Origin: an uncultured Acidimicrobiia bacterium
GTDB lineage: Bacteria; Actinomycetota; Acidimicrobiia; Acidimicrobiales; AC-14
Length of the DNA: 64,000 nt
Reading direction: 5' to 3'
Assembly (NCBI GenBank): GCA_963836205.1
Contig: CAWIIV010000011.1
Coordinates: 64,001 to 128,000 of the forward strand
The position numbers and the translations under genes are program-made. The notes below the pieces were generated by a model. The model made no database searches. It saw only the letters and a program-made list of their open reading frames with translations, and was not told where the DNA came from. Below are positions 5,231-61,866 of this stretch, piece after piece; the first letter of the stretch is position 1; each line of letters opens with the position of its first letter.

Positions 5231-5306
5231 CCACGGGACCGTAGCGTCCGCAGGCCTGAGCCCCCGACGCCCCCGCCCAACCGGTGACGGCAGGTTCCGA
5301 CCCAGG

Positions 5307-5427
5307 CAACTGGTGACACTTTTCGGGGCCCTGGCAACCGAAAACGTCACCGGTTCGCAACGCCCGTCCAACCGGTGACACTTTTCGGGGCCCTGGCGAC
5401 CGAAAACGTCACCGGTTCGCTACGCCC
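5307..5427. repeat. Two 62-bp copies of a REP-like imperfect palindrome
   Basis: CAAC(T/C)GGTGACACTTTTCGGGGCCCTGGC(A/G)ACCGAAAACGTCACCGGTTCGC at 5307 and 5369; same family as 17696-18048. Confidence 0.85.
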
Positions 5428-5445
5428 GGCGGGCCGGGTCGGCGG

Positions 5446-5874
5446 CTACGGCCAGGGCCAGAGGCCGGCGCCTTTGACGGCCGCGACGACGTCGGCGTCC
5501 TCGCCTTTCGCGATGCGGCGGGCGGCCGGGTGCTCGCCTTCGGCCAGCCACTCCGGCTCCGAGAGTCCCCGGGCCAGGGCGTTGGCCACGCCGCCGGCCA
5601 GCTGCCACGCCCGGGGCCGGAGCTTGGCCTCCTGGGCCTTGCGCACCGCCGCCTCCTCCATCCGCCGGGCCTTCGACGCCACGTCGACCTCGTCGAGGAT
5701 CCACGCCTCGACCACGTCACCCGTCCACACCGGGCCGATGGTGAGGACTGTGGGCGGCGGCAACCGGCCCTCGTCCATCCACTTGGTGACCTCGTCCGGC
5801 GTCTTGTCGATGCGCGCGGCCAGCTCCACGATCCCGTAGGCCGGCGGCGGCGCGGACGGCCCGTCTGTCGTCAT
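5446..5874 (-). CDS. Hypothetical protein with AlpA/MerR-like HTH N-terminus
   Basis: GIVELAARI...W...GRLPPP...GPVW...VEAW; TAGCCT-N6-ATG leaderless-type start. Confidence 0.55.
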   Translation of the reverse strand: MTTDGPSAPPPAYGIVELAARIDKTPDEVTKWMDEGRLPPPTVLTIGPVWTGDVVEAWILDEVDVASKARRMEEAAVRKAQEAKLRPRAWQLAGGVANALARGLSEPEWLAEGEHPAARRIAKGEDADVVAAVKGAGLWPWP

Positions 5875-5883
5875 ACGTGCAGG

Positions 5884-7547: not shown

Positions 7548-7979
7548 GTGCTCCTCGTCCTCGACGTCAACGTCGTCCTCGCCGCCCACCGCCAGGACCA
7601 TCCCTCCCACGGGTCCGTTCGCCCCTGGTTCGACGCGGTCGTGGCCGGCGACGACGATTTCGCGGTTCCGGACGGGGTCTGGGCCTCGTTCCTCCGCCTC
7701 GCCACCAACCGCCGCATCTTCGTCGTGCCGACCCCGCTCGCCGACGCGTTCCTCTTCCTCGACGCGACCATCGCCCAGCCCCGCCACCTTCGTCTGGGGC
7801 CCGGCCCTCGCCATCCGGCCCTCGTCCGCCGGCTCTGCGAGGAGGCCGAGGCCACCGGCGACCTCGTCCCCGACGCCGTGCTCGGCGCGATCGCGGTCGA
7901 GCACGGGGCCACCGTCGCGACGCTCGATCGCGACTTCGCCCGGTTCCCGTCCGTCGCCCACGTCCGTCCCGGGCGCTGA
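7548..7979 (+). CDS. vapC: VapC PIN-domain toxin
   Basis: [26 protein letters not shown]. Confidence 0.88.
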
Positions 7980-7988
7980 ACGCCGGAA

Positions 7989-8867
7989 TCAGCCCCGGCG
8001 GCAGCCGAGTGCGGTTTGCAGGGTGGCCAGGTTCTGGCGCATGAGCGAGAAGTAGTCGTCCTCGCCCTCGTTCTCCACGCCCTCGATGGTGTTCAGCACG
8101 GCCGTCGTCACCCCGGCCTCCCGGGCCAGGGTCTCCGCCACCTCGGGCGAGACCAGCTCCTCGGTGAAGATGGTGGTCACCCCCCGGCTCCTCACCAGGT
8201 CGGCCAGCTCGGCCAGGCGGCGGGGGTCGGGCTCGGCGTCGGGGGACAGGCCGGAGATGGCTACCTCCTCCAGGCCGTACCGGCGGACCAGGTAGCCGAA
8301 CGCCTGGTGGCTGGTGACGATGAGGCGGGAATCGCACTCGGCCAGGCCGGACCGGAGCTCGGCGTCGAGCTCGTCCAGCCGCCGGCGGTAGTCGTCGGCC
8401 CCCGCCCGGTAGGTGTCGGCATGGGCGGGGTCGACCTCGATCAGGGCCGCCTCGATCCCGTCGGCCACCTCGCCGAACACCACCGGGTCGAGCCACACGT
8501 GGGGGTCGTCCGCCTCCGCGCCGTCCAGGTCAGCCCGGAGGTCGACCGCGTTGGGTGTGAGCCGGGCCGCGTCCTCCACCGCCGGTTGAAAGCCGCCGCC
8601 CAGGTAGAACATGAGGTCGGCCGAGGCGATCCGGTCGAGCTGGCGGGGGTTGAGCTCGATGTCGTGGGGCTCGACGCCGGCCGGCGTGAGGTTGGCGACG
8701 TCGACCTGCTCACCGCCGACACCCCGGGTGGCATCGACCAGGGGGTAGAAGCTGGCCACCACCGACAGCCGCCCGTCGCCCGAGGACCCCGAGCCGCGCT
8801 CACCGCCGCACCCGCCCAACAGGACGGCGAGGGAGACGATGACGCCGACCGCCTGTGTTCTGCGCAT
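7989..8867 (-). CDS. znuA: Metal (Zn) ABC substrate-binding lipoprotein
   Basis: Lipobox LLGGC, EPHD, DPHVWLDP, SHQAFGY; TACCGT-N7-ATG. Confidence 0.88.
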   Translation of the reverse strand: MRRTQAVGVIVSLAVLLGGCGGERGSGSSGDGRLSVVASFYPLVDATRGVGGEQVDVANLTPAGVEPHDIELNPRQLDRIASADLMFYLGGGFQPAVEDAARLTPNAVDLRADLDGAEADDPHVWLDPVVFGEVADGIEAALIEVDPAHADTYRAGADDYRRRLDELDAELRSGLAECDSRLIVTSHQAFGYLVRRYGLEEVAISGLSPDAEPDPRRLAELADLVRSRGVTTIFTEELVSPEVAETLAREAGVTTAVLNTIEGVENEGEDDYFSLMRQNLATLQTALGCRRG

Positions 8868-8887
8868 GCCCGGCACGGTACCACGGT

Positions 8888-8907
8888 GATGGGAATGATT
8901 CTCATTC
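8888..8907. promoter_or_regulatory. Zur/Fur-family operator upstream of znuA
   Basis: GATGGGAATGATTCTCATTC, similar to the reverse complement of the znuC box. Confidence 0.7.
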
Positions 8908-8927
8908 GCTACCCGGGTCGAGCGACT

Positions 8928-9836
8928 CTAGGGCGGCGGCGGTTCCACCTTGGGGGCCGGTCCGAGGCGGGCCAGTTCCCGCTCCACGTCGTCCCAGAGC
9001 AGGAGGCCGTCGGCCTCGCCGTACTCCTTCTGGCTCGACTCCTCCCGGGAGTACCAGCGGAAGAAGATCACCGCGATCACGATCCACAGGTAGAACCCGG
9101 CCCCCACCTTCATGATCAGGCCCGCGAACAACTGGTCGTTGAGGGCCGAGATGTCCCACAGCCGGGGGAACGTCTCGTAGATCGGGTAAAGCGGCTTCTT
9201 GCCGAAGGTGAGGAAGGAGGCCGGCACCGTCGGGACCACCGTCTGGAGGAACAGGTAGAGCATCTGCACCGGCGGTTTCAACCGGGGGACCTCGGGCAGG
9301 GGGCTCAACACCGGGAACCACATGAGCACGGCCGAGGTCAGCAGCACCGCGTGGGCGATGAAATGCAGCGGGTGGTGGACCACCGTGGCCTCCACCACCG
9401 CCGGCCAGTGGCTCAGGACGAGGATCAGGTTGGCCTGGAACAGGGCGAGCGCGGGCTTGGAGAAGGCCCGCACGATCTTGAGCAGCCCCGGCGGGCTGAG
9501 CAGCCGCCGCATGAGCCAGCCGGGCGTTCCCAGCAGGAGCAGGGGCGCCACCACCAGCGTGAGCGTGAGGTGCTGGGCCATGTGGGCGCTGTAGAGGTAG
9601 CCCTCGGCCAGGTCGTGCACCGGCCAGTCGGAGACACCCCACATGACGGCCATCCCCAGGCCGAAGGCCCACAGCTGGCCGCGGGTGGCGACGGCCTCAG
9701 CGCCAGGTCCCCGGCGGGCCCGCTCCCGCCGCAGGGCGACGAGGTAGCCGAGGATGATGAGGGAGAAGAGCGCCCAGCTGTCGAAGTGGGCGTGCCAGGC
9801 GGGGAAGGGGACGGCCGCAGCCGCTATCGGTGCCAA
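8928..9836 (-). CDS. ctaG: caa3-type cytochrome c oxidase assembly factor
   Basis: YLYSAHMAQHL...APLLLLG...DQLFAGLIMK. Confidence 0.88.
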   Translation of the reverse strand: MAPIAAAAVPFPAWHAHFDSWALFSLIILGYLVALRRERARRGPGAEAVATRGQLWAFGLGMAVMWGVSDWPVHDLAEGYLYSAHMAQHLTLTLVVAPLLLLGTPGWLMRRLLSPPGLLKIVRAFSKPALALFQANLILVLSHWPAVVEATVVHHPLHFIAHAVLLTSAVLMWFPVLSPLPEVPRLKPPVQMLYLFLQTVVPTVPASFLTFGKKPLYPIYETFPRLWDISALNDQLFAGLIMKVGAGFYLWIVIAVIFFRWYSREESSQKEYGEADGLLLWDDVERELARLGPAPKVEPPPP

Positions 9837-10180
9837 ATGTGGAACGTCGACAACACGCTGACGTAGCAGAACAGGGCCAGGACGAGGCCGGTGACGAAGA
9901 AGCGGCGGAACAGCTTGCTGTCGAAGCGCAGGTGCATGAAGAACATCACGACCACGCTGAACTTCACGACCGCCATGATCACCAGGATGTAGACCAGCAG
10001 CCCCTCCAGGGCCTCCACGTAGTAGACGCCCACCTCGGCCGCGGTGACCACGGCCAGGAAGAGGGCGATGTAGACGTACTGGAGGTCGCTCGGGTGCTCG
10101 TGGGCGGCGCCGTGGGCCGGCCCCCCGTGCTCGGGCGGGGTGTCGACGACGGGCCCCCCGGTGGGGTCGGTAGCCGTCAT
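9824..10180 (-). CDS. Cytochrome c oxidase subunit IV (CyoD/caa3 type)
   Basis: HPS..QYV.IALFLAVVTAAEV...KF..V..FFMHLRFD. Confidence 0.85.
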   Translation of the reverse strand: MTATDPTGGPVVDTPPEHGGPAHGAAHEHPSDLQYVYIALFLAVVTAAEVGVYYVEALEGLLVYILVIMAVVKFSVVVMFFMHLRFDSKLFRRFFVTGLVLALFCYVSVLSTFHIWHR

Positions 10181-10824
10181 GGGATGAGGTACACGAGGGT
10201 GAAGATCACGATCCAGACGATGTCGACGAAGTGCCAGTAGAGGCCGATGAGCTCGACCACCTCGGCTTTGGCCGACGGTAGCTTCCCCTTCAGGGACATG
10301 CTCCAAAGCGACAGGAGCATGAGCACGCCGATGGTGACGTGGGCCCCGTGGAAGCCGGTCATGATGTAGAAGCTGCTGCCGAAGAGATTGGTGCGGAGGT
10401 TGAGGCCTTCCCGCACGAAGACGGTGAACTCGTAGGCCTGGCCGGCCACGAAGCTCCCGCCCAGCAGGGCGGTGGTGAGCAGCCACACCCGTAGGGCCCG
10501 GTGGTCGCCCCGCTGGATTGCCGACAGGGCCAGCACCATGGTGAGGCTGCTCATGAGCAGGACGAACGAGCTGACCGATGTGTAGGGGATGTCGAAGATG
10601 TCGGCCGGGTTGATCGTCCCCGGCTCGCTCTGGCCCTTATAGAGCAAATACGTCGATATCAGCCCCCCGAAGAGGAGGCACTCCGAGCCCAGGAAGGCCC
10701 ACATCGCCACCTTCTCGTTGCTGAGTCCGGTGGAGGTGGGGGGATGGCCGGGCTCCACCTCGTGGTGGCTGCCCTCGGAGCTGCTTTCGGGGGATGCGGA
10801 GACGTCGTGGTCGGTGACGGTCAT
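10177..10824 (-). CDS. ctaE: Cytochrome c oxidase subunit III
   Basis: WAFLGSE, TGFHGAHV, LYWHFVDIVW. Confidence 0.93.
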   Translation of the reverse strand: MTVTDHDVSASPESSSEGSHHEVEPGHPPTSTGLSNEKVAMWAFLGSECLLFGGLISTYLLYKGQSEPGTINPADIFDIPYTSVSSFVLLMSSLTMVLALSAIQRGDHRALRVWLLTTALLGGSFVAGQAYEFTVFVREGLNLRTNLFGSSFYIMTGFHGAHVTIGVLMLLSLWSMSLKGKLPSAKAEVVELIGLYWHFVDIVWIVIFTLVYLIP

Positions 10825-12968
10825 CCCTGGCCCACCGGCTGGAGGTCTTCGGACGGCGAGTCGTCGGGGGCCAGGGCGGCGTCGTGGCCGTTGGGCTCCT
10901 CCGGCGGCTCCGGCTCGGTGGCCGGCTCGAGTCCCCAGGAGTAGATGCCGCCGAGCATCCAGATGCCGCCGATCACGGCCACGACCCAGAACTTGTAGAT
11001 CATCCCGTAGCAGATGACCGCCAGTCCGACGGCGGTGAAGGCGGGCCAGTACGAGGGCGACGGCAGGTGGATGTGGACGTGCTCCTCGTGGTCGTCCCCG
11101 TGCTCGCCGTCGTGATCACCGTCGGGGCCGTCAGCGTGGTCGCCGTGATCAGCGTCGTGGCCGTCACCGTCGGCGAGGACGACGTCGGTGGACGCCTCCA
11201 CCTCGTCGGTGGCCTCCTCCTGGGGCGACACCTTGGCGTCGGCCGGGATGGGCTTGTCCCGCAGGACCGCCCGGCCGTGCTCGTCCTCGGTGTACTTCTG
11301 GTGCCAGAAGTCGTCGCGGGCGGTGACGGTGGGCACTTCCTTGAAGTTGTACTCGGGCGGCGGGGACGGGATGGTCCACTCCAGGGTGCGGGCGTCCCAG
11401 GGGTCGTCGCCGACGTGGGGACCCTTGCGGCTGACCCACAGGTTGTACATGAACACCATCACCGACAGGGCGATGAGGAACGAGCCCAGGGTGGCCACGA
11501 AGTTCCACACGTCCCAGCCCCGGCCCGTGGGGTACGTGTAGACCCGCCGGGGCATGCCCTGCAGGCCGAGGATGTGGAACGGGGCGAAGGTGGCGTTGAA
11601 CCCGATCATCGTCAGCCAGAAGTGGACCTTGCCCATGCGGTCGGACAGCATCCGCCCGGTGAGCTTGGGGTACCAGTAGTAGAGCCCGGCGAAGAGGCCG
11701 AAGATGCTGCCGCCGAAGAGCACGTAGTGGAAGTGGGCGACGATGTAGTAGGTGTCGGTCTGCTGGGTGTCGGAGGGGACGACGGCGTGGGTCACTCCCG
11801 ACAGCCCGCCGATGGTGAACATGGTCACGAACCCGACCGCGAACAGCAGGGGAGTGGTGAGGCGGATCTTGCCTTTCCACAGGGTGCTGATCCAGTTGAA
11901 GATCTTCACGCCGGTTGGCACCGCGATGAACATGGTGGAGGCGCTGAAGGCGGACAGGGCGACGGGGCCGAGGCCGGTGGCGAACATGTGGTGGGCCCAC
12001 ACGCCCCAGCCCATGAAGCCGATGGCGATGCCCGAGAACACCATGACCTGGTAGCCGAACAGGGGTTTCCGGGAGAACACCGGTAACACCTCGGACACGA
12101 TCCCCATCGCAGGGAGGATCAGGATATAGACCTCCGGATGGCCGAAGAGCCAGAAGAGGTGTTGCCAGAGCAGGGGGTCGGCCCCCGCCTCGGCGTTGAA
12201 GAAGTTGGTGGCGAAGAGCCGGTCGAAGCTGAGCAGGAACAGGGCCACGGTGATGACCGGGATGGCGAAGAGCAGCAGGAACTGGGCCACCAGCGACATC
12301 CACACGAAGATGGGCATCCGCATGAGGCTCATGCCCGGGGCCCGCATGTTGATGACGGTGACGATCAGGTTGACGGCACCGGTCAGCGAGGCGATGCCCA
12401 GGATCTGGAGGCCGAAGACCCAGTAGTCGATGTTGTGGCCGGGCATGTTGCGGGTGAGGGGGGCGTAGCCGAACCAGCCGCCGTTGGGCGCCCCGCCCAG
12501 GAAGAAGCTGGAGTACATGAACAGTCCGCCGACGATGAACACCCAGTAGCCGAAGGCGTTGAGCCGGGGAAACGCCACGTCGCGGGCACCGATCATGAGC
12601 GGCAGCAGGTAGTTGGCGAGCCCGGCCGACAGGGGCATGATCACCAGGAAGATCATGGTGGTGCCGTGCATGGTGAAGATCTGGTTGTAGGCGTCGGCGC
12701 TGAGGAAGGTGCTGTTGGGCGAACCCAGCTGGACTCGCAGCAGGAGGGCCTCGATGCCGCCGATCAGGAAGAAGATCATGGCCGAGACGGCGTAGAGGAC
12801 GCCGATCTTCTTGTGGTCGACGGTGGTGATCCACCCCCACAGGCCCTTGGCGTCGCCGGTGGGCCGCCGGAGGAGGCGGGTGGGGGCCTTGGCGTCGGGG
12901 GTGCCGGGTGCGCCAGGGCCGACGGGTGAGGCCGGGGCCGCGGGCGCCGGTTGGGTGACGATGGCCAT
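10821..12968 (-). CDS. ctaD: Cytochrome c oxidase subunit I (A1 type, catalytically complete) with C-terminal extension
   Basis: FTMHG, GHPEVY, WAHH, PTGVK, AHFHY and MPRR all intact. Confidence 0.97.
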   Translation of the reverse strand: MAIVTQPAPAAPASPVGPGAPGTPDAKAPTRLLRRPTGDAKGLWGWITTVDHKKIGVLYAVSAMIFFLIGGIEALLLRVQLGSPNSTFLSADAYNQIFTMHGTTMIFLVIMPLSAGLANYLLPLMIGARDVAFPRLNAFGYWVFIVGGLFMYSSFFLGGAPNGGWFGYAPLTRNMPGHNIDYWVFGLQILGIASLTGAVNLIVTVINMRAPGMSLMRMPIFVWMSLVAQFLLLFAIPVITVALFLLSFDRLFATNFFNAEAGADPLLWQHLFWLFGHPEVYILILPAMGIVSEVLPVFSRKPLFGYQVMVFSGIAIGFMGWGVWAHHMFATGLGPVALSAFSASTMFIAVPTGVKIFNWISTLWKGKIRLTTPLLFAVGFVTMFTIGGLSGVTHAVVPSDTQQTDTYYIVAHFHYVLFGGSIFGLFAGLYYWYPKLTGRMLSDRMGKVHFWLTMIGFNATFAPFHILGLQGMPRRVYTYPTGRGWDVWNFVATLGSFLIALSVMVFMYNLWVSRKGPHVGDDPWDARTLEWTIPSPPPEYNFKEVPTVTARDDFWHQKYTEDEHGRAVLRDKPIPADAKVSPQEEATDEVEASTDVVLADGDGHDADHGDHADGPDGDHDGEHGDDHEEHVHIHLPSPSYWPAFTAVGLAVICYGMIYKFWVVAVIGGIWMLGGIYSWGLEPATEPEPPEEPNGHDAALAPDDSPSEDLQPVGQG

Positions 12969-13020
12969 CAGGAGCGCCCGGCCGCGATAGGCCACGTCGG
13001 GGGAAGGAGGTGGTGTTCGG

Positions 13021-14040
13021 TCACTGCAACGTCTCCAGGTAGGCGATGAGCTGGTCGATCTCGTCGTCGGTGAGGCCCAGGTCGGGCATCAGCGAGCCGG
13101 GCTTGACCGCAGGCGGGTCCGCCAGCCAGGTGCGGAGGTTCTCCTCGTTGAGGTTGAAGATGCTGCCGGCGAAGGTCTTGCGGCTCTGGAAGTGGGTGAG
13201 GTCGGGACCGATCTTGCCCTGCGAGACCCCGGCCACCGTGTGGCAGCCGGCGCAGCCCTTGGCGCTGAAGAGAGCCAGGCCCTCGGCCGCGGGGCCGCCC
13301 GCGGGCGGGGTGACAGCGGCCGAGCGCTGTCGCGCCACCCAGGTGTCGAAGTTGGCCGGGGTGTGGGCGACGGCCTGGGCTCGCATGTTGGCGTGGGAGA
13401 GCCCGCAGAACTCGGTGCACTGCCCGAGGTAGGTGCCGGGCTTGTCGGCCTCGAAGCTCATATGGTTGACCCGGCCGGGGATGACGTCGGTCTTCCCGGC
13501 GAGGGGCGGGATCCAGTAGCTGTGGATGACGTCGACGCTCTCCAGGTTGAGCTCGACGGGCATGCCGGCGGGGATGTTGAGCTCGTTGGCGGTGGTGATG
13601 CCGAGATCGTCGTAGCGGTACTCCCACCAGTACTGGTGGCCGATGACGGTGACGTGGAGGGCGTTGGCCGGCTTCTCGGCCAGGTCGAAGATGGTGGCGA
13701 TCGTGGGGATGGCGATGGCGAACAGGATGAGGGCGGGGATGAGCGTCCAGCCCACCTCGAGCTTGGTGTTGCCGTGGATCTGCTCCGGCTCGGGCCCGGG
13801 CCGGTCACGGAACCTGATCACGCAGTAGAGGACGAGGGCGGGCACCAGCACGAGAAACACACCGGCGATGAGAAAAACCGGCTCGCTCAGGTCGAGGATC
13901 TTCTTGGCCACCGGACCCGCAGGCTCCATCGTGTCCTGGGGGGCCTTCTCGGCGCAGGCGCCGAGGGTGAGGAGGAGCCCGCCGCTGGCGAACGCGCCCA
14001 GACGCCGGAGCCCTCGGGCTGGACTCGTGAAGCCGTTCAC
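13021..14040 (-). CDS. ctaC: Cytochrome c oxidase subunit II with fused cytochrome c (caa3 type); start uncertain (14040-14085)
   Basis: Lipobox LGAC, DVIHS, CuA motif CTEFCGLSHANM, CAGCH and distal Met. Confidence 0.93.
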   Translation of the reverse strand: MNGFTSPARGLRRLGAFASGGLLLTLGACAEKAPQDTMEPAGPVAKKILDLSEPVFLIAGVFLVLVPALVLYCVIRFRDRPGPEPEQIHGNTKLEVGWTLIPALILFAIAIPTIATIFDLAEKPANALHVTVIGHQYWWEYRYDDLGITTANELNIPAGMPVELNLESVDVIHSYWIPPLAGKTDVIPGRVNHMSFEADKPGTYLGQCTEFCGLSHANMRAQAVAHTPANFDTWVARQRSAAVTPPAGGPAAEGLALFSAKGCAGCHTVAGVSQGKIGPDLTHFQSRKTFAGSIFNLNEENLRTWLADPPAVKPGSLMPDLGLTDDEIDQLIAYLETLQ

Positions 14041-14042
14041 AT
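14025..14042. promoter_or_regulatory. Rex operator-like site at the ctaC start
   Basis: TCGTGAAGCCGTTCACAT vs consensus TTGTGAAnnnnTTCACAA. Confidence 0.6.
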
Positions 14043-14101
14043 CAGTGACTCTCGCGGTTCGCTCCGCGCCCGTCCAATCCCTCATGCCAGCCCCTTGGCC
14101 C

Positions 14102-15103
14102 TCATGCCACCTTGGCCTTGCCGTTCATGTTGGGGTGGACGTCGCACTGGAAGAAGTACTCGCCCGGTGCCGGGCTGGCGAAGTGGTAGGTGACCTCGGC
14201 CGGACCGGCCACGATGTCGCCCTTGAAGATGGGGGGCGCGGTGGCGTCGGCACCGCCGTAGAGCGACACGTTGTGGGGAATCCCCGTGTCGTCGTTCTTG
14301 AGGACGATCTCGGCCTCGCCTGCCGGCAGGGAGAACTCCTTGAGGTCGAAGGCGATGTCGTCGGCCACGATCTCGACCGCGCCGGGGGCGTGGCCCTCCT
14401 GGCCCCCGCCGTGGTGCTCGATGTGGCGCTCGCCGGCACTGGCCGCCACCAGTCCCCCGGCGATCATGAGCACGCCGGCGACGCCGAGCACGGAGACCAT
14501 GGTGCGGGCCGAGATCGACGGCCGCAGGGCGAGCAGGGTGGCCATCCCGAGGATGACGACGGCCACCGCCAGCGCGATCCAGGTGGATGCCATCTCGGGC
14601 ACGGCCAGCAGGATGCGGGACATGAAGTACATCAGCGAGGCGATGCAGAACAGCCCCAGGACGGGGATGCCGATGGGCAGGAGGTTGATCTGGCGACCGG
14701 TGGTGTCGGCCGACACCCGGGCCAGCCAGCCGGCGACGGTGACCAGTCCCAGGCCGACGCCGAAGTAGGCGGGCAGGGGCCCCACCACCAGGCCGAGCAG
14801 GAGGAGGGTGATCGAGAGGGCGGCGGTGAAGGGCCAGGAGCCGCCGGCCGGAAGGGGCGCCCGGGCGACCTCGTGGTAGGCGGGCGGGTCGGCGTCGGGG
14901 GCGACCCACTCGGGCGCGTCGTTGACCCGGAATCCGGCGACGACGACCCCGGCGAAGCCGGCCACGCCGACCAGGAGCAGGTAGAGGGTGATGCCCAGCC
15001 AGTCGCCGGTGAAGGCGCCGTAGACGATGCTCAGGAGGAGGGACGCGGCCGAGACGGGCAGGAAGATCCGCGACGGCTGGGTGAGGACGGCCGACTTCGC
15101 CAT
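14102..15103 (-). CDS. Membrane protein: actinobacterial CtaF-like N-terminus, extra TM helices and C-terminal type-1 Cu cupredoxin
   Basis: RIF...YG..TGDWLGIT and SWPFTAAL resemble CtaF; PHNV...FQCDVHPNM copper ligands; ATGA overlap with the upstream gene. Confidence 0.75.
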   Translation of the reverse strand: MAKSAVLTQPSRIFLPVSAASLLLSIVYGAFTGDWLGITLYLLLVGVAGFAGVVVAGFRVNDAPEWVAPDADPPAYHEVARAPLPAGGSWPFTAALSITLLLLGLVVGPLPAYFGVGLGLVTVAGWLARVSADTTGRQINLLPIGIPVLGLFCIASLMYFMSRILLAVPEMASTWIALAVAVVILGMATLLALRPSISARTMVSVLGVAGVLMIAGGLVAASAGERHIEHHGGGQEGHAPGAVEIVADDIAFDLKEFSLPAGEAEIVLKNDDTGIPHNVSLYGGADATAPPIFKGDIVAGPAEVTYHFASPAPGEYFFQCDVHPNMNGKAKVA

Positions 15104-15762
15104 CAGCCGTTGACCCGGCTGAGCACGAACAGCACGGTGCCGATCGCGAACCAGATGGCATTGGTGTACTGGAAGAACAGGATGCCGCTGCGCAGCGGGT
15201 CGTGGTGGTCGGCGGTGAAGTGCCCGAGCAGCGAGCGTCCGGCCAGGAGCACGAGCAGGCCCATGGCCGTGAGCAGGTGCACCAGGTGGTAGCCGATGAG
15301 CACGTAGTAGAAGGTGCCGTAGGCGTGGTCGCCGACTCCGAAGCCGGCCTTGCCGAAGGCGGCCCACTCGGCGTTGGCCGCCGCCACCCCGAGGAACACG
15401 GTGAGGATCAGGGCGATGGCCACGTTGCGCTGGTCGTTCTCGCGCACCGCCCGGATCGCCCACATGGCCGCCGCGGAAGCCATGGTGACGGTGATGGTGA
15501 CGACGGAGGGGATGTAGGTGCCGACGCCGACGTCGACCGGCGGCCACGCCGACGACCCGTCCTTGACCGCGAAGTAGGCGGCCACGATGGTCGACAGCAC
15601 CATGGCGTCGGCCACCATGAACAGGTAGGTGCCGAGGGCCCGGGTGCGATCGGGGAGGACGCGGGCGGGCGTGGGCTTCACCCCGCTGGGCAGGGCGAGG
15701 GGCGCCGCGGGGGAGGCGGCCGGGGAGGCGTCGGTGCGGGCGGGCGCGGTGACGGCCGTCAC
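15103..15762 (-). CDS. Divergent heme-copper oxidase subunit III paralog
   Basis: LFMVADAM, YYVLIGYHLVH and FFQYTNAIW align to CtaE. Confidence 0.8.
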   Translation of the reverse strand: MTAVTAPARTDASPAASPAAPLALPSGVKPTPARVLPDRTRALGTYLFMVADAMVLSTIVAAYFAVKDGSSAWPPVDVGVGTYIPSVVTITVTMASAAAMWAIRAVRENDQRNVAIALILTVFLGVAAANAEWAAFGKAGFGVGDHAYGTFYYVLIGYHLVHLLTAMGLLVLLAGRSLLGHFTADHHDPLRSGILFFQYTNAIWFAIGTVLFVLSRVNG

Positions 15763-15778
15763 GAGCGATGAACCATCA

Positions 15779-17458
15779 TCAGGGCTGGGCCTCCGGTGGG
15801 GCCAGGTCGAGGAGGGGCGTCTCGGAGCGCACCTCGGGGAGGACGCGGAAGTTGTCGGCGGGCGGGGGCGACGTGGTGGTCCACTCCAGGGTGTGGCCGC
15901 CCCACGGATCGGATCCGGCGGCCTGACCCCGGCCGGCGAGCACACTGACCAGCAGGTTCAGGATCAGGAGCAGCACCCCGAACACGATGATCACCCCGCC
16001 GATGGAGGCGATGAGGTTGGCCGGCGCCCAGTTGCCGTCGGTGACGTAGCTGGCGGTGTGGGCGCCCATGTCCTGGATGCCGAGCACGAACATGGCCAGG
16101 AACGTGAGGTGCATGCCCCCCACCAGGGCCAGCCACTGGATGCGGCCGAGGCCCTCCGACAGGTGGCGGCCCCAGAGCTTGGGCGCCCAGTAGTAGATGG
16201 CGGCCACCGCGCCCGAGAGGGCAGCCCCGAAGAAGAGCGTGTGCTGGGTGGCGACGCCCCAGTAGTTGCGGTGGGAGCGGCCGCCGGCGTCGAGGCCGGC
16301 GATCAGCTCGCCGGCCAGGCCGATGGCGAGCAGGCTGATCATGCCCACCACGTGGAGCATCGGCACCGACCGCAGCCGCTGCTTGAGCGTCTTGTCCTTG
16401 CGGGCGGCGGTGACGATGGTGGCCAGCCAGTTCAGGATCAGGGAGGCCACCGGCAGCAGGACGAGGAGGACGCCGAGGGCGAACAGGGGCCGGGCCCGCC
16501 GCAGGTTGCCCACCTCGCTGCCCCAGCCGGCGAACGACAGGACCCCGATGGCGGCGATGGCGGCGATGGCCCGGGGGTGGCTGAAGAGCCGGCGGCGGGC
16601 GAACACGGGGATGATGTCGGACGCCGCCCCCAGGGCCGGCAGCAGGAGGGCCCACAGCAGGGGGAAGGCGCCGAACCAGAACAGCCGGGGCCACAGGAGA
16701 GGGTTGCCGCCCCGGGTGCCGGTGAACCCGTTGAAGACGTGGCCGCCGTAGTGGCGGTCGACGAAGAGCAGGAGGAGCACGCCCACCAGTACCGGGAGGG
16801 CCAGGAGCATCACCGCCGAGGACACGGTGGCGGACCAGCTGAACAGGGGGATGCGGGCCATGGTGAGGCCGGGCGCCCGCAGTTGGAGGACGGTGGCGAG
16901 CACGTTGATCGCCACCGTGATGGCCGCCACCGCCACCACGATCAGGCCCAGGATGAGCAGGTCGATGCCCTCGCCGGCGAAGGCGGCGCCCTCGGGGAGG
17001 GGCGAGCTGAGGGTCCATCCCCCCACCACGTCGGACACCAACGGGGCCGCCGCCACCATCGCCGCCCCGCCCAGGAACAGCCAGAGGGACAGGGCGTGGA
17101 CCCGGGGAAAGGCCATCCGGGTGGCGCCGATCTGGAGGGGCACCATGGCCGTGACCAGGCCCAGCCAGAGGGGGAGGAGGAAGAGGAACACCATCATCAC
17201 GCCGTGCATGGTGAAGAGCTGGCGGTAGGTGTTGCCGCCGACGACATCGAGGTCGGGGGCGGCCAGCTGCGACCGCATGATCATGGCCAGCACCCCGCCG
17301 GCCACGAGGAAGGCGAGGGAGGCGGCGATGAAGAGCGTGCCGATGACCTTGTGGTCGGTTCCGGCGGTGGAACCCTGGTCAACCTCGACCTCGACCGTCT
17401 CGGGCTCGGACGCGGCTCCGGGGGCGTCCGTCTCGGGACTGGCGTCGGTGATCGTCAT
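15779..17458 (-). CDS. Heme-copper oxidase subunit I paralog lacking the binuclear-centre ligands (pseudo-oxidase)
   Basis: Colinear with ctaD (DHKxIG, FTMHG, AFPR, YYWxPKLxGR, DPWxxxTLEW) but GHPEVY->AFPLLW, WAHH->WGSE, AHFH->ATQH. Confidence 0.85.
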   Translation of the reverse strand: MTITDASPETDAPGAASEPETVEVEVDQGSTAGTDHKVIGTLFIAASLAFLVAGGVLAMIMRSQLAAPDLDVVGGNTYRQLFTMHGVMMVFLFLLPLWLGLVTAMVPLQIGATRMAFPRVHALSLWLFLGGAAMVAAAPLVSDVVGGWTLSSPLPEGAAFAGEGIDLLILGLIVVAVAAITVAINVLATVLQLRAPGLTMARIPLFSWSATVSSAVMLLALPVLVGVLLLLFVDRHYGGHVFNGFTGTRGGNPLLWPRLFWFGAFPLLWALLLPALGAASDIIPVFARRRLFSHPRAIAAIAAIGVLSFAGWGSEVGNLRRARPLFALGVLLVLLPVASLILNWLATIVTAARKDKTLKQRLRSVPMLHVVGMISLLAIGLAGELIAGLDAGGRSHRNYWGVATQHTLFFGAALSGAVAAIYYWAPKLWGRHLSEGLGRIQWLALVGGMHLTFLAMFVLGIQDMGAHTASYVTDGNWAPANLIASIGGVIIVFGVLLLILNLLVSVLAGRGQAAGSDPWGGHTLEWTTTSPPPADNFRVLPEVRSETPLLDLAPPEAQP

Positions 17459-17695
17459 TGCGTCGCGGACTGTAGTGGGCGGCCTCCTGGGTATTCGAAC
17501 TGAGAACCCCCGGTCGGCGACGGTCGCTCGCCACGGCGGACGGAAAAATTACTGTCTGCAGGGGTGCGGACGATGGTGCGAGCTCGAGCGTGCGCCGCCT
17601 TTCTGCGCCGGACGGTCGCCGGCCGACAAGACCGTTCGGTGACCCCGCCCTGCGAACGGGTGACGGTGAACGTCCTCTCCCGGCGGCGGAGGCGA

Positions 17696-18048
17696 GCCGT
17701 CTGCGAACCGGGGACGGATCCGGTGGCCAGGACCACCGAAAGTGTCACCGGTTGGAGGTGGGGCGGCGCCGTCTGCGAACCGGGGACGGATCCGGTGGCC
17801 AGGACCACCGAAAGTGTCACCGGTTCGAGGTGGGGCGGCGCCGTCTGCGAACCGGGGACGGATCCGGTGGCCAGGACCACCGAAAGTGTCACCGGTTGGA
17901 GGTGGGGGCGCGCCGTCTGCGAACTGGTGACGGATCTGGTGGCCAGGACCACCAGAAACGTCACCGGTTGGAGGTGGGGGCGCGCCGTCTGCGAACTGGT
18001 GACGGATCTGGTGGCCAGGACCACCAGAAACGTCACCGGTTGGAGGTG
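17696..18048. repeat. Five tandem 72-bp REP-like palindromic units
   Basis: Units start at 17696, 17768, 17840, 17912, 17984; three of variant A, two of variant B; no unique spacers. Confidence 0.92.
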
Positions 18049-18054
18049 CAGGCG

Positions 18055-18954
18055 GTGAGTGTGCCTTCGGCGCCTGAGTGGCCGGGGGTTCTGGCCGCGT
18101 GGACGTTCGAGCCGGTGACGGTCGCGGGCCTGGCCTCGGCGGCGGTGGCCTACGGGCAGGCGTGCCGGGTGGCCCGGTCGCTCACTCCCCGCCACCCGGT
18201 CGACGCATGGCGGCGGGCGGCGTTCTTCGGCGGGCTGGCGGTGGTGGGGGTCGCCCTCCTCTCGCCGGTCGACACCTACGCCGACGCCCTCCTGTCGGTC
18301 CACATGGCCCAGCACGTGCTGCTGACCCTCGTGGCCGCGCCCCTGCTCCTCCTGGGCCGGCCGGGGGAGCTGGCCCTGCGGGTGGTGTCGCCCGCCCGCC
18401 GGCGGCGGTGGCTGCGGGCCGGCCACTCCCCGGCCGTCCGGCTGGCGTCGGCACCCCTCGTGGCCTGGACCGTCTTCGCCGCCGCGGGCTGGGTTGTCCA
18501 CTTCTCGCCCCTGTTCGACGCCGCCCTCCGGTCCCAGCAGGTGCACGTCGCCGAGCACGCCCTGTTCCTGGGCACCGCCCTGTTGTTCTGGTGGCCGGTC
18601 GTGGGCGGCCATCCCGGCCGGCGTCCACTGGCCCACCCTGTCCGCCTCCTCTACCTGGGGGTGGCGATGCCCCAGAACACGTTCTTGGCCCTGGCCATCC
18701 TCGGGGCCAACGGGGTCCTCTACTCCCACTACGCCGATCTGGCCCGCTCGTGGGGACCGTCGCCCTTGGCCGACCAGCGCCAGGGGGCGGGGCTCATGTG
18801 GGTGGCCGGCGACCTGATCCTGCTGGTGTCGGTGCTGTTGGTGGCCGCCGCGTGGGCCCGCCACGAGCAGCGGGCGACGGAGCGGGCCGAGCGGGCGGAG
18901 GACGCGGCCGCGGCCGAGGCCGAGGCCGGCGCGGGCGCCCCCGGTTCTCCTTAG
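18055..18954 (+). CDS. ctaG: Second caa3-type CtaG assembly factor
   Basis: SVHMAQHVLL...APLLLLGRP...EHALF...DQRQGAGLMW. Confidence 0.85.
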   Translation: MSVPSAPEWPGVLAAWTFEPVTVAGLASAAVAYGQACRVARSLTPRHPVDAWRRAAFFGGLAVVGVALLSPVDTYADALLSVHMAQHVLLTLVAAPLLLLGRPGELALRVVSPARRRRWLRAGHSPAVRLASAPLVAWTVFAAAGWVVHFSPLFDAALRSQQVHVAEHALFLGTALLFWWPVVGGHPGRRPLAHPVRLLYLGVAMPQNTFLALAILGANGVLYSHYADLARSWGPSPLADQRQGAGLMWVAGDLILLVSVLLVAAAWARHEQRATERAERAEDAAAAEAEAGAGAPGSP

Positions 18955-19835
18955 TGGGGCAGGAGCTGGTCGACGGCCATGGCGCCGAACAGGAGGGTGA
19001 TGTAGGTGATCGACCACCCGAACAGCCGCATGGCCTTCTCGTAGGTGCCGCTGCGGGCCAGGGCCACCGCATGCCAGGTGAAGATGGCGCCCAGGACGAT
19101 CGCCGCCCCCCCGTAGAGCAGGCCCATCTCGCCCACCGGCCAGAAGGCGAGGCTGATCGCCCACAGGATGAGGGTGTAGGCCACGATCCGGCGGGACGTG
19201 AACTCGAAGCTGGCCACCGACGGGAGCATGGGGACTCCGGCGGCCGAGTAGTCGTCGCGGTAGCGGACGGCGAGGGCCCAGAAGTGGGGCGGGGTCCAGG
19301 CGAAGATGATGCCGAAGAGCACGACCGGGGCCCAGCTCAGCGTCCCGGTGACTGCGGCCCAGCCGACCAGCACCGGCACCGCCCCCGCGGCCCCGCCGAT
19401 CACGATGTTCTGGGTCGACGTCCGCTTGAGCCACAGGCTGTAGACGAAGACGTAGAAGAGGGTGGCCGACACCGCCAGCAGGGCGCTCAGGGGGTTCACC
19501 GTCAGCCACAGGACCGCCGCCGCCAGCAGCTCGAGGGCGATGGCGAACACCAGGGCGTTGCGGGGCGTGATCTCGCCGGTGACCAGGGGGCGCTTCTGGG
19601 TGCGCTGCATGATCGTGTCGATGTCGCGGTCGATGACCATGTTGGTGGCGTTGGCGCCGGCCGCGGCCAGGGTGCCGCCGACCAGGGTGGCGAAGATGAG
19701 CCACACCTCCGGCATCCCCCGCTGGGCCACCACCATCGTCGGCACCGTGGTCACCAGGAGCAGCTCGATGATGCGCGGCTTGGTGAGCGCCAGGTAGGCC
19801 GCGAAACGGGAACGGGTGGTGAGAACGGCGGTCAT
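18951..19835 (-). CDS. ctaB: Protoheme IX farnesyltransferase (heme o synthase)
   Basis: LTKPRI, DRDID..MQRT.KRPL, WTPPHFWAL. Confidence 0.95.
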   Translation of the reverse strand: MTAVLTTRSRFAAYLALTKPRIIELLLVTTVPTMVVAQRGMPEVWLIFATLVGGTLAAAGANATNMVIDRDIDTIMQRTQKRPLVTGEITPRNALVFAIALELLAAAVLWLTVNPLSALLAVSATLFYVFVYSLWLKRTSTQNIVIGGAAGAVPVLVGWAAVTGTLSWAPVVLFGIIFAWTPPHFWALAVRYRDDYSAAGVPMLPSVASFEFTSRRIVAYTLILWAISLAFWPVGEMGLLYGGAAIVLGAIFTWHAVALARSGTYEKAMRLFGWSITYITLLFGAMAVDQLLPH

Positions 19836-53731: not shown

Positions 53732-53798
53732 CCCCCCGGATGTACGCCGCGCCGTGACACGTCGGAGGGGGCGAAGGCGCCGATTCTCGCCCGCCGCG

Positions 53799-61358: not shown

Positions 61359-61370
61359 GGGGAGGTACCG

Positions 61371-61826: not shown

Positions 61827-61866
61827 GAGTGGTCCGAACAGTGGTCCAGATGGTGGTGATGAACTG

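What the first reader, a model, noticed from the sequence alone, without database searches (positions are those of the whole stretch)
15779..17458. Subunit I paralog selectively keeps only the low-spin heme ligands
Seen, by alignment to ctaD in this window. Kept: helix II His (FTMHG, ~17204), the second helix X His (ATQH, ~16241) and the helix I Arg (MRSQL). Lost: CuB His/Glu/Tyr (GHPEVY->AFPLLW), the CuB His pair (WAHH->WGSE), heme a3 His (AHFH->ATQH), D-channel Asp/Asn (ARDVAFPRLN->ATRMAFPRVH), K-channel Lys (PTGVK->PVASL) and the Arg pair (MPRR->MGAH). The 559-aa frame is uninterrupted and structural motifs persist. Inference: loss is confined to catalytic and proton-pumping residues, which suggests neofunctionalisation rather than decay. 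NO reductases keep these His ligands, so it is not an NOR.
Basis: partly seen in the sequence, partly recalled or inferred. Interest (0 to 1): 0.85.

Follow-up and report, generated by a model that had tools for sequence, protein, structure and literature searches.

The report
Heme-only dead oxidase subunit paralog
This gene encodes an intact, strongly conserved copy of the catalytic subunit of cytochrome c oxidase that can no longer reduce oxygen but keeps one heme site, and it travels with a blue-copper membrane protein inside a real oxidase operon, so it is probably a non-catalytic helper module of respiration that has not been described.

Summary
The 559-aa minus-strand ORF (15779-17458, here X1) is a full COX1-fold protein that keeps both low-spin heme histidines (H85, H406) and the helix I Arg. 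It has lost all three CuB His, the Tyr, the Glu, the heme a3 His, the D- and K-channel residues and the Arg pair.

It is not decay. All 36 other genomes searched in its taxonomic family carry an ortholog. 120 of 120 database relatives keep both His. The replacement residues are themselves conserved, and dN/dS resembles that of neighbouring oxidase genes.

X1 is the first gene of a conserved trio. X3 is COX3-like. X4 has seven TM helices plus an auracyanin-like type-1 copper domain. The trio lies between heme O synthase (ctaB) and a complete caa3 operon.

A tree places X1 in a well-supported clade of 54 sequences that all lack CuB. One sister subfamily has the same gene order but has mostly lost the heme ligands, and its X4 lacks the copper domain.

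Best reading: a catalytically dead "pseudo-oxidase" accessory to caa3, whose heme and blue copper form a small electron relay. A role in heme A handling or assembly is the main rival. Seven full-text searches found nothing in print.

The parts
15779..17458 (-). X1: COX1-fold paralog, 559 aa. It keeps R62, H85 and H406 (the low-spin heme site). It lacks the CuB ligands, the heme a3 ligand, the D/K channels and the Arg pair.
15103..15762 (-). X3: COX3-like five-helix protein, 219 aa from a GTG 16 nt after the X1 stop. The start is inferred.
   Evidence: PF00510 E 8.4e-19. The best NCBIfam hit is aa3_CtaE_Actin at 43.4 bits, against a cut-off of 190. It is syntenic in 19 of 20 loci.
14102..15103 (-). 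X4: seven TM helices plus a C-terminal type-1 (blue) copper domain, 333 aa. Its ATG overlaps the X3 stop.
   Evidence: Cupredoxin_1 and Copper-bind hits. H277, C320, H323 and M326 are invariant in 19 of 19 sequences. The AF2 model has 7 helices plus a beta sandwich. Auracyanin B matches at Z 12.9, rmsd 3.1, 98 aligned. Predicted to bind X1.
13021..14085 (-). caa3 subunit II with fused cytochrome c (ctaC), starting 16 nt after X4.
   Evidence: PF00116, PF02790 and PF00034. TIGR02866 at 198 bits, above the cut-off of 147.7.
10821..12995 (-). Real ctaD (caa3 subunit I) with all ligands. The start codon is uncertain and there is a C-terminal extension.
   Evidence: PF00115 E 4.7e-161. TIGR02891 at 736.4 bits, above the cut-off of 670.75. 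Ligand pattern RHDNHEYHHKHHRR (L003).
10177..10824 (-). caa3 subunit III.
   Evidence: PF00510.
9824..10240 (-). caa3 subunit IV (start uncertain).
   Evidence: PF03626. TIGR02229 at 33 bits, below the cut-off of 37.25.
8928..9836 (-). Caa3_CtaG assembly factor, the last gene of the row.
   Evidence: PF09678 E 1.1e-46.
18951..19835 (-). ctaB, heme O synthase. It lies upstream of X1 in every locus examined.
   Evidence: NF003349 at 407.5 bits, above the cut-off of 246. Synteny.
18151..18954 (+). Second Caa3_CtaG paralog, divergent from X1 (start uncertain; the ORF opens at 17590).
   Evidence: PF09678 E 7.3e-66. Present at this place in 6 of 20 loci.
17696..18048 (.). 72-bp tandem repeat, 4.9 copies, in the X1 upstream region. 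It is a copy of a repeat dispersed over the genome and is not specific to this operon.

Best explanation
X1 is a catalytically dead, oxidase-derived membrane protein. It binds a single bis-His low-spin heme and has no CuB, no high-spin heme and no proton channels.

Together with X3 (subunit III-like) and X4 it forms a 'pseudo-oxidase' complex. That complex is made from the same operon as a real caa3 oxidase and its cofactor and assembly genes, and it works as an accessory to that oxidase.

X4 docks on X1 through its N-terminal transmembrane helices and carries an auracyanin-like type-1 copper domain on the outer face of the membrane. In this subfamily the blue copper and the X1 heme form a two-centre electron relay (an input or buffer) beside caa3.

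**Shown:** the fold, the ligand pattern, conservation, gene order, and the copper ligands of X4.
**Supported by a model only:** X1-X4 binding.
**Inferred:** heme occupancy, contact with caa3, and electron flow between copper and heme.
For: 1. **Ligand pattern and fold.** Searches give the ligand pattern. The AF2 model has pLDDT 86.7, pTM 0.89 and 12 TM helices. Foldseek gives TM 0.82-0.88 to solved subunit I.
2. **Maintained by selection.** All 36 other genomes of the own taxonomic family have an ortholog at 46-84% identity. 210 positions are at least 90% conserved in 122 family sequences, against 196 in 30 canonical ones. Replacement residues are fixed: R114 119/120, Y/F265 120/120, W269 120/120, S314 114/120, E315 117/120, H467 114/120. 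dN/dS against genome G302 is X1 0.34, X3 0.27, X4 0.28, ctaD 0.22, ctaC 0.27.
3. **Conserved gene order.** The order ctaB-X1-X3-X4-ctaC-ctaD-ctaE-ctaF-ctaG holds in the 20 loci examined wherever the contig reaches. This includes five loci at about 40% identity from other families. Intergenic gaps in the window are 16 nt or less, or overlaps.
4. **X4 copper site.** The type-1 copper ligands H277, C320, H323 and M326 are invariant in 19 of 19. The domain matches auracyanin B at Z 12.9, rmsd 3.1, 98 aligned. Seven helices place it outside the cell if the X1-contacting loop is cytoplasmic.
5. **Predicted X1-X4 complex.** Score 0.64, best of 3 controls 0.00. That mark was reached by 58 of 80 solved complexes and 2 of 110 mismatched pairs. 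The runs agree in at least 92% of contacts, and the partner pLDDT is at least 72. The interface is X4 residues 10-130 against X1 helices III/IV, the 113-126 loop (which includes R114) and the C-terminal tail.
6. **Heme and copper co-vary.** In the sister P0160/P0303 subfamily, X1 has R62 in 0/120, H85 in 42/120, H406 in 20/120 and both His in 19/120. In the 6 loci with an X4 gene, that gene ends after the TM domain with no cupredoxin, although the gene order is the same.
Against: - The cupredoxin domain is not part of the confident interface in the predicted complex, so its position over the heme is not supported.
- Heme binding is inferred from ligands only.
- The co-loss of heme ligands and the copper domain rests on essentially one contrast between two clades. 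Kin are not independent.
- G316 keeps the copper ligands of X4 while its X1 has lost H406.
- The Arg pair that carries electrons from CuA to heme a in real oxidases is gone.
- Nothing tested here shows contact with caa3.
- X1 always follows ctaB, and SURF1 was not found in 45 of 46 X1-bearing genomes. Both fit an assembly role at least as well.
Confidence: 0.4

Rival explanations
1. X1-X3-X4 is an assembly or heme A handling scaffold. It acts as a stand-in for subunit I that takes heme O/A from CtaB/CtaA at its preserved heme a pocket and passes it to nascent CtaD. This is a Surf1-like role. Alternatively, it serves as a redox partner for heme A synthesis.
For: - X1 directly follows ctaB in all 20 loci of this subfamily that reach it and in 7 of 7 loci of the sister subfamily.
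- ctaA lies just upstream of ctaB in some relatives, for example G336, G331, G311 and G312.
- The Arg at the position of R38 in canonical subunit I, which by recollection contacts heme a, is kept in 119/120.
- SURF1 (PF02104) was found in 0 of 41 genomes of the own family and in 1 of 5 X1-bearing genomes of other families, against 66 of 100 other genomes of the class.
- A passage in 10.1101/2020.03.01.968255 says the electron donors of CtaA are undetermined.
Against: - The sister subfamily lacks the heme ligands yet keeps the same position.
- Other families without X1 also lack SURF1, for example f23 0/7, f35 0/3 and f36 0/3.
- A type-1 copper domain has no obvious use in a heme chaperone.
- Family counts are not independent.
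Confidence: 0.3
2. X1 is a purely structural pseudo-subunit. The heme is only a folding relic, and X4's copper domain is an independent, membrane-tethered electron carrier for caa3 (like auracyanin or AcoP) that merely uses X1/X3 as an anchor.
For: - 21 of 54 tips of the CuB-less clade lack at least one low-spin His, so the clade's common role does not need heme.
- X4 lies directly before ctaC, the position of the cupredoxin gene cup in the Acidithiobacillus rus operon (passage).
- AcoP matches at Z 9.9.
- The confident X1-X4 interface is transmembrane only.
Against: - Both His, R62 and H467 are near-invariant in this subfamily.
- All of them are lost in the subfamily whose X4 has no copper domain. 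That argues the heme is used together with the copper.
Confidence: 0.2
3. X1 is a new enzyme. The rebuilt pocket (R258, Y/F265, W269, S314, E315, Q/T404, D463, H467) binds a new metal or substrate next to the heme.
For: The replacements at former ligand positions are fixed, not random: Y/F265 120/120, W269 120/120, S314 114/120, E315 117/120, R258 120/120, D463 114/120.
Against: - Ser, Glu and Tyr/Phe make a poor metal site, and 12 of 120 have Phe at 265.
- Many neighbouring changes go to larger hydrophobic residues (G381L, A334L, V268L, V408L, K340L, T337V). That looks like pocket filling and channel closure.
- No coordinates were available to measure a cavity.
Confidence: 0.07
4. X1 is a decaying pseudogene or an assembly artefact.
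For: G316 has Asn at 406 and a split X3. G306 has a fragmented X1.
Against: - The frame is intact, and orthologs occur in all 36 other genomes of the own family.
- Conservation equals that of canonical CtaD.
- In G306 the real ctaD, ctaC, CtaG and PD40 genes are fragmented too, so that assembly is poor throughout.
Confidence: 0.03

Closest known systems
A-family heme-copper oxygen reductase subunit I, actinobacterial aa3 type (CtaD; PDB 8hcr_F, 6adq_F)
   Same: - 12-helix fold (TM 0.86-0.88).
- Low-spin heme His pair and helix I Arg.
- It is the best sequence match (E 9.9e-97), and X1 is 40% identical to the genome's own aa3-type CtaD against 36% to the caa3 CtaD.
- It comes with subunit III- and possibly IV-like partners.
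   Different: - No CuB His, Tyr or Glu; no heme a3 His; no D/K channel residues; no Arg pair.
- It scores 409 bits against the 670.75 cut-off of TIGR02891.
- It has no subunit II of its own.
Nitric oxide reductases of the HCO superfamily (cNOR, qNOR, eNOR, bNOR, sNOR, gNOR, nNOR; PMC11214002, passages read)
   Same: Members of the superfamily that have given up O2 reduction and the Tyr cofactor.
   Different: The passages read say NORs keep a high-spin heme and a second metal held by three His. Only gNOR changes one of these His, to Asp. X1 has none of these.
Auracyanin / amicyanin, and the oxidase-associated cupredoxin AcoP ('cup') of the Acidithiobacillus rus operon (for X4)
   Same: - Type-1 copper His-Cys-His-Met site and cupredoxin fold (auracyanin B Z 12.9, AcoP Z 9.9).
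- Membrane tethered.
- The gene lies directly before oxidase subunit II (passage in 10.1101/2020.03.01.968255).
- That auracyanin and AcoP act as electron carriers for respiratory complexes is recalled, not read here.
   Different: X4 has seven TM helices, and its N-terminal part is predicted to bind an oxidase-like subunit I. Auracyanin and AcoP have a single anchor, and no dead oxidase partner is known for them.
Cofactor-less COX1 paralogs noted earlier in this scan (AI notes e1-4321123, e1-1067560, e1-3014388; unchecked leads)
   Same: - Intact subunit I paralogs without the binuclear centre.
- They lie inside oxidase operons of Acidimicrobiia or next to ctaB or copper proteins.
   Different: The subfamily here keeps exactly one heme site and is paired with a type-1 copper fusion. 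The Acidimicrobiia case noted earlier lost all ligands and matches the sister subfamily found.

Membership tests
A-family heme-copper oxygen reductase subunit I (CtaD/CoxA, TIGR02891) | 12-helix COX1 fold (PF00115) | tested here: met
   PF00115 E 2.1e-84. AF2 model pTM 0.89. Foldseek TM 0.82-0.88.
A-family heme-copper oxygen reductase subunit I (CtaD/CoxA, TIGR02891) | Two His ligands of the low-spin heme (helices II and X) | tested here: met
   H85 and H406 are both present in 120 of 120 relatives.
A-family heme-copper oxygen reductase subunit I (CtaD/CoxA, TIGR02891) | Axial His of the high-spin heme | tested here: not met
   T404 in the window. His in 0 of 120 relatives (Q 66, T 47, E 6, Y 1).
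A-family heme-copper oxygen reductase subunit I (CtaD/CoxA, TIGR02891) | Three CuB His and the cross-linked Tyr | tested here: not met
   F265, S314, E315 and W269 in the window. His at none of the three positions and Tyr at 269 in 0 of 120.
A-family heme-copper oxygen reductase subunit I (CtaD/CoxA, TIGR02891) | D-channel Asp/Asn and Glu; K-channel Lys | tested here: not met
   R114, H121, L267 and L340.
A-family heme-copper oxygen reductase subunit I (CtaD/CoxA, TIGR02891) | Curated NCBIfam score cut-off | tested here: not met
   409.2 bits against 670.75. NF050116 gives 382.1 against 880. The window's real ctaD passes with 736.4.
HCO-superfamily nitric oxide reductase | High-spin heme His plus three His (and Glu) for the second metal | tested here: not met
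   The same positions as above are not His. The feature is taken from passages of PMC11214002.
Type-1 (blue) copper cupredoxin (X4 C-terminal domain) | His-Cys-His-Met ligand set in a cupredoxin fold | tested here: met
   H277, C320, H323 and M326 are invariant in 19 of 19. PF13473 at 29.8 bits, above 27. Auracyanin B Z 12.9, rmsd 3.1, 98 aligned. Copper binding itself is not testable here.
Actinobacterial oxidase subunit IV (CtaF, PF12270) (X4 N-terminal helices) | Match to the family profile or fold | tested here: inconclusive
   PF12270 E 0.024, 15.2 bits against a cut-off of 26.9. The structure searches were filled by the cupredoxin domain.
Oxidase subunit III (COX3, PF00510) (X3) | Match above the Pfam cut-off | tested here: met
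   68.9 bits against 23.8. It is far below the NCBIfam aa3_CtaE_Actin cut-off (43.4 against 190).
SURF1 heme a chaperone | Homology to PF02104 | tested here: not met
   The Pfam scan of X1 lists PF00115 only. Any Surf1-like role would be by analogy, not by membership.

The most novel reading that the evidence does not exclude
A whole clade of Acidimicrobiia carries a previously unrecognised respiratory accessory complex. It is a 'fossil' aa3-type oxidase (subunits I, III and IV-like) stripped of its oxygen chemistry and re-used as the membrane dock of a blue-copper/heme electron relay that feeds or buffers a co-encoded caa3 oxidase. The heme and the copper domain were gained or lost together in different subfamilies. 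A bolder variant is that this relay is the missing electron donor for heme A synthase, and that it replaces Surf1.
Probability: 0.3. Interest if true: 0.8.

Novelty: new variant of a known kind. Interest (0 to 1): 0.66.

Why it matters
**Annotation.** Heme-copper oxidase subunit I is treated as an enzyme whose six His ligands define it. Annotation pipelines name these proteins 'cytochrome c oxidase subunit I' or 'cbb3-type oxidase subunit I' (names). Metabolic reconstructions of widespread soil and freshwater Acidimicrobiia therefore count an oxidase that cannot work.

**Biology.** A conserved dead oxidase paired with a blue-copper protein would be a new kind of respiratory accessory module. 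It would also be a natural experiment on what the subunit I scaffold and its low-spin heme can do without the binuclear centre.

**Open questions it could address.** How caa3 oxidases of Gram-positive bacteria get their electrons, how heme A is delivered where Surf1 is missing, and what donates electrons to heme A synthase.

Tried and rejected
**Hypotheses dropped**
- *CtaA replacement.* CtaA (PF02628) was not found in the own genome, which is 88.6% complete. It is present in 37 of 40 other genomes of the own family, so the idea that X1 replaces heme A synthase was dropped.
- *The 749-aa ORF 17455-19704 (-)* that overlaps the X1 start has no Pfam hit and an Arg/Pro/Gly-rich translation. I treated it as spurious. 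The region really holds ctaB (-), a second ctaG (+) and a repeat.

**Searches that gave nothing usable**
- *Expression.* No RNA holder was listed for window 13000-17500.
- *Pocket volume.* The structure tools return no coordinates (one search shows none in /data). Whether the a3/CuB pocket is filled could not be measured.
- *CtaF-like fold of the X4 helices.* Foldseek and VIA-align lists were filled by cupredoxins, so this stayed inconclusive.
- *More independent cases of heme and copper co-loss.* P0160 was found in 0 of 151 class genomes at E 1e-120. P0189 gave only 2 of 301 order genomes at E 1e-110, both at 45% identity and of the already known type. The other heme-less subclades therefore remain without gene context.
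- *SURF1 against X1 presence.* This is suggestive but not clean. Several families without X1 also lack SURF1, and G171 has both.
- *Promoters and terminators.* The scan of 7900-18300 gave 0 promoter-like sites and 3 terminator-like sites, against 3.1 expected. It was not informative.

**Literature**
- Seven searches gave no paper on ligand-less subunit I paralogs.
- I read passages only of PMC11214002, PMC9145763 and 10.1101/2020.03.01.968255. Their supplements were not seen and may list such sequences.

**Earlier findings and failed calls**
- Earlier findings by place and by sequence returned nothing.
- (MAFFT) timed out and was rerun with faster settings.
- Searches failed on argument format.
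Full report
**1. What is there**

The window is 72% G+C. On the minus strand a tight row of genes runs from 19835 down to 8928:
- ctaB, heme O synthase (18951-19835; NF003349 407.5 bits)
- X1 (15779-17458)
- X3, COX3-like (15103-15762)
- X4 (14102-15103)
- ctaC, subunit II with a fused cytochrome c (13021-14085)
- the real ctaD (10821-12995)
- subunit III (10177-10824)
- subunit IV (9824 to about 10240)
- a Caa3_CtaG assembly factor (8928-9836)

Gaps from X1 to ctaC are 16 nt or overlaps. Between ctaB and X1 this genome also has a second, divergent CtaG paralog and a 72-bp tandem repeat. The 749-aa ORF that overlaps the X1 start is an out-of-frame artefact.

**2.

X1 is an uninterrupted 559-aa protein. 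It matches PF00115 over its whole length but falls far below the curated cut-offs for subunit I: TIGR02891 409 against 670.75, and NF050116 382 against 880. The real ctaD passes with 736.

- Kept: R62, H85, H406.
- Lost: CuB His1, Glu and Tyr (GHPEVY to AFPLLW); the His pair (WAHH to WGSE); the heme a3 His (AHFH to ATQH); the D-channel Asp and Asn; the K-channel Lys; and the Arg pair (MPRR to MGAH).

The coordinates given for the two His codons are correct.

**3. It is a maintained family, not decay**

*Database relatives.* A search of the 5.8-billion-protein collection gave 702 proteins at E 1e-20 or better among 8000 scored candidates. The 120 listed are 55-100% identical, well above the 34-40% to canonical CtaD. 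Their sources call them cytochrome c oxidase subunit I or 'cbb3-type' subunit I of Acidimicrobiia, Acidimicrobiales or Actinomycetota MAGs.

*Ligand positions in those 120.*
- Both low-spin His are present in 120, and R62 in 119.
- His at the a3 position occurs in 0.
- The replacements are fixed: R114 119, Y/F265 108+12, W269 120, S314 114, E315 117, L340 113, H467 114, R258 120, D463 114.

*Overall conservation.* 210 positions are at least 90% conserved in 122 family sequences, against 196 in 30 canonical sequences. 86 positions are shared, and 29 are conserved in both sets but with different residues.

*Whole genomes.*
- The own genome has three subunit I homologs: X1, the caa3 ctaD, and an aa3-type ctaD next to a cytochrome b on another contig.
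- All 36 other genomes of the same taxonomic family have an X1 ortholog at 46-84% identity.
- The 29 best loci all show the degenerate pattern, with H85 in 29 of 29 and H406 in 28 of 29. Seven of these 29 are unpublished genomes (L039, L044, L045, L053, L057, L058, L061). Without them the count for H406 is 21 of 22.
- The exception is G316, which reads Asn at 406 and whose X3 is in two pieces. This may be local decay or an assembly error.
- G306 has a fragmented X1, but its real oxidase genes are fragmented too.
- In named genome contigs, 47 of 79 loci are degenerate, all from Acidimicrobiia-type MAGs. H406 is present in 47 of 47 and H85 in 45 of 45 that reach it. The other 32 loci, all at 40% identity or less, are canonical.

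*Selection.* Nei-Gojobori dN/dS against the same-genus genome G302 is 0.34 for X1, 0.27 for X3 and 0.28 for X4. For comparison it is 0.22 for ctaD, 0.27 for ctaC and 0.24 for ctaG. dS is compressed by the extreme GC3, so all ratios are inflated. The comparison between genes is the useful part.

**4. Fold**

AlphaFold2 with a 68-row alignment gives pLDDT 86.7, pTM 0.89 and twelve transmembrane helices. Foldseek finds solved subunit I chains at TM 0.82-0.88, with rmsd 2.1-2.8 Angstrom to Paracoccus and Rhodobacter enzymes. No coordinates are returned, so I could not measure whether the a3/CuB pocket is filled.

At sequence level many family-specific changes around helices VI-X go to larger or apolar residues: G381L, A334L, V268L, V408L, Y269W, K340L and T337V. 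I read this as pocket filling and channel closure, which is an inference.

**5. The partners**

*X3* is a COX3-family protein (PF00510, 68.9 bits). It is closest to the actinobacterial CtaE model, though far below its cut-off.

*X4* has seven helices followed by a confidently modelled beta sandwich.
- Its His-Cys-His-Met type-1 copper ligands (H277, C320, H323, M326) are invariant in 19 of 19 orthologs, as is an SRxLL motif in helix 5.
- The domain is most like auracyanin B (Z 12.9, rmsd 3.1, 98 aligned), azurin and amicyanin. AcoP, the oxidase-bound cupredoxin of Acidithiobacillus, scores Z 9.9.
- Its first helices give only a weak hit to actinobacterial subunit IV (PF12270, E 0.024).

*Predicted X1-X4 complex.* A prediction of X1 (30-559) with X4 and a heme riding along supports binding. 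The score is 0.64 and the best of 3 controls is 0.00. That mark was reached by 58 of 80 solved complexes and 2 of 110 mismatched pairs. The runs agree in at least 92% of contacts and the partner pLDDT is at least 72.
- The confident interface joins X4 residues 10-130 to X1 helices III and IV, the loop 113-126 and the C-terminal tail.
- R114, which replaces the D-channel Asp, is part of this interface. The X4 loop facing it is acidic. The former proton entrance may therefore have become a subunit contact, which is an inference.
- If that loop is cytoplasmic, seven helices put the copper domain outside the cell. This also fits the positive-inside rule.
- The copper domain itself is not in the confident interface.

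*Origin.* X1 and X3 are closer to the actinobacterial aa3 type than to the neighbouring caa3 genes. The trio therefore looks like a duplicated aa3 core (I, III and perhaps IV) that lost its subunit II and its chemistry.

**6. Gene order elsewhere**

In 20 loci fetched around X1 orthologs, the order ctaB-X1-X3-X4-ctaC-ctaD-ctaE-ctaF-ctaG is kept wherever the contig reaches.
- In two genomes of one genus, about 5 kb including a ZnuA-like gene separates the trio from caa3.
- In one genus X4 has two tandem cupredoxin domains.
- Five of the 20 loci come from other families of the order, at about 40% identity. Their X1 keeps both helix X His (HxH), and mostly Glu and Tyr, but has Arg, Ala and Gly at the three CuB positions. 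The copper site was therefore lost first, and the a3 His later in the lineage of this window.

**7. A wider clade**

A full HMMER search of 1.84 billion representatives gave 12238 proteins at E 0.001 or better and 765 at E 1e-30 or better. I classified 159 sequences: 141 of the best 150 representatives (nine shorter than 480 aa were dropped), the 15 X1 loci, P0001 and the two real ctaD genes.
- 70 have all six His.
- 33 keep only the low-spin pair.
- 12 keep the low-spin pair and the a3 His.
- 30 lack at least one low-spin His.
- 14 are mixed.

In a FastTree tree (LG+gamma, 549 columns, midpoint rooted), X1 falls in a 54-tip clade with SH-like support 0.993 that contains no canonical sequence. 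The window's type (14 tips, support 0.998) is sister to a 40-tip group. Low-spin His were lost several times within the clade. The sampling is biased towards relatives of X1.

Other degenerate lines exist outside this clade. One is a 62-member Solirubrobacterales cluster without any of the six His.

**8. The informative contrast**

One sister subfamily (P0160/P0303 type; 914 proteins at E 1e-40 or better among scored candidates; again named Acidimicrobiales) has Arg at position 62 in 0 of 120, H85 in 42, H406 in 20 and both His in 19.

Seven metagenome loci of this type show ctaB directly upstream. Where the contig reaches, they show the same X3-like, X4-like and caa3 genes downstream. In all six loci that hold the X4-like gene, it ends after the transmembrane part with a short acidic tail and has no cupredoxin domain. 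None of the seven X1 copies has His at position 406.

So the dead-oxidase trio inside the caa3 operon is the constant. The heme ligands of X1 (with R62 and H467) and the copper domain of X4 appear together or not at all. This is the main argument that heme and copper work as a pair here. It is essentially one contrast between two clades, and G316 is a counter-example in the making.

**9. Function**

I commit to a non-catalytic pseudo-oxidase that is an accessory of caa3 and that, in this subfamily, carries a blue-copper/heme electron relay.

I hold the core with roughly 0.75 confidence: no O2 or NO chemistry, maintained by selection, one heme site, partners X3 and X4, and linkage to caa3. I hold the relay itself with about 0.35. 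The overall figure of 0.4 reflects the whole statement.

The main rival is a role in heme A delivery or assembly.
- X1 always follows ctaB.
- ctaA sits just upstream in some relatives.
- SURF1 was found in 0 of 41 genomes of the own family and in 1 of 5 X1-bearing genomes elsewhere, against 66 of 100 other class genomes.
- Against it: families without X1 also lack SURF1, counts over kin are not independent, and the heme-less sister subfamily does not fit a heme carrier.

A new-enzyme reading and decay are unlikely, for the reasons given under the rival explanations.

**10. Known or new**

Seven full-text searches found nothing on subunit I paralogs without the binuclear centre. In the passages I read:
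- PMC11214002 describes the active-site His as conserved in all families except one His in gNOR.
- PMC9145763 lists no such assembly factor.
- 10.1101/2020.03.01.968255 describes a cupredoxin gene just before COX2 in the rus operon, but no dead subunit I.

Supplements were closed and may hold relevant lists.

Earlier AI notes of this scan report similar ligand-less paralogs in other genomes, including one inside oxidase operons across Acidimicrobiia and one beside copper proteins. These are leads, not evidence. The first agrees with the sister subfamily I found independently.

I rate this a new variant of a known kind.

**11. Unpublished genomes**

Counts include genomes G212, G254, G275, G308, G309, G315, G317, G321, G323 and G335. 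No conclusion rests on them alone.

Noticed in passing
window 17696-18048 (also about 5308-5420): A 72-bp tandem repeat with 4.9 copies at 96% match lies upstream of X1. It belongs to a dispersed repeat family that matches on both strands, with 62 matches across the own genome. It looks like a REP- or MITE-like intergenic element.
   Followed up: partly
window 17590/18151-18954 (+): A second Caa3_CtaG paralog (PF09678 E 7.3e-66) lies divergent from X1, in addition to the one ending the operon. It is present at this place in 6 of 20 related loci. Whether it serves the copper site of X4 is open.
   Followed up: partly
own genome and relatives: SURF1 (PF02104) was not found in any of 41 genomes of the own taxonomic family. 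It was found in 66 of 100 other genomes of the class sample. Of five X1-bearing genomes from other families, only G171 has it.
   Followed up: partly
own genome: Heme A synthase CtaA (PF02628) was not found in the own assembly, which is 88.6% complete. It is present in 37 of 40 other genomes of the own family, so it probably lies in an assembly gap.
   Followed up: yes
window 60112-63895: A b6-type split cytochrome b (62288-63100 and 63125-63895) follows a 2x[4Fe-4S] ferredoxin gene (61867-62280) and an unassigned 151-aa ORF (61371-61826). A cytochrome c protein lies on the other strand (60112-61356). This may be a second bc-type complex that could reduce X4 or caa3.
   Followed up: no
window 51522-57700: Heme biosynthesis genes: glutamyl-tRNA reductase, porphobilinogen deaminase, a uroporphyrinogen-III synthase/methylase fusion, and an aminotransferase (hemL-like). 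They lie on the same contig as the oxidase cluster.
   Followed up: no
L070 5741-7135 and L071 5789-7201 (genus g151): X4 orthologs of 464-470 aa carry two tandem cupredoxin domains, each with the His-Cys-His-Met set.
   Followed up: no
L073 (G316) 4163-6505: The X1 ortholog has Asn instead of the second low-spin His and Asp at the H467 position. Its X3 is in two pieces, while X4 keeps its copper ligands. This may be a lineage in which the module is decaying, or it may reflect assembly errors.
   Followed up: partly
L062-L066 (other families of the order): X1 homologs in the same gene order keep both helix X His, and mostly Glu and Tyr, but have Arg/Ala/Gly at the three CuB positions. This is a probable two-heme, copper-less intermediate form.
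   Followed up: partly
protein P0146 and its cluster: A 62-member cluster named Solirubrobacterales 'cbb3-type subunit I' has lost all six His, including the low-spin pair. It lies outside the 54-tip clade, so it is an independent degenerate line.
   Followed up: no
window 10821-12995: The real ctaD ORF is 724 aa, with about 150 residues beyond the COX1 domain. These give a weak hit to the SCO2097 family (24 bits against a cut-off of 110).
   Followed up: no
window 7548-7979 (+) and 41864-42277 (-): Two PIN-domain genes, probably toxin-antitoxin toxins.
   Followed up: no
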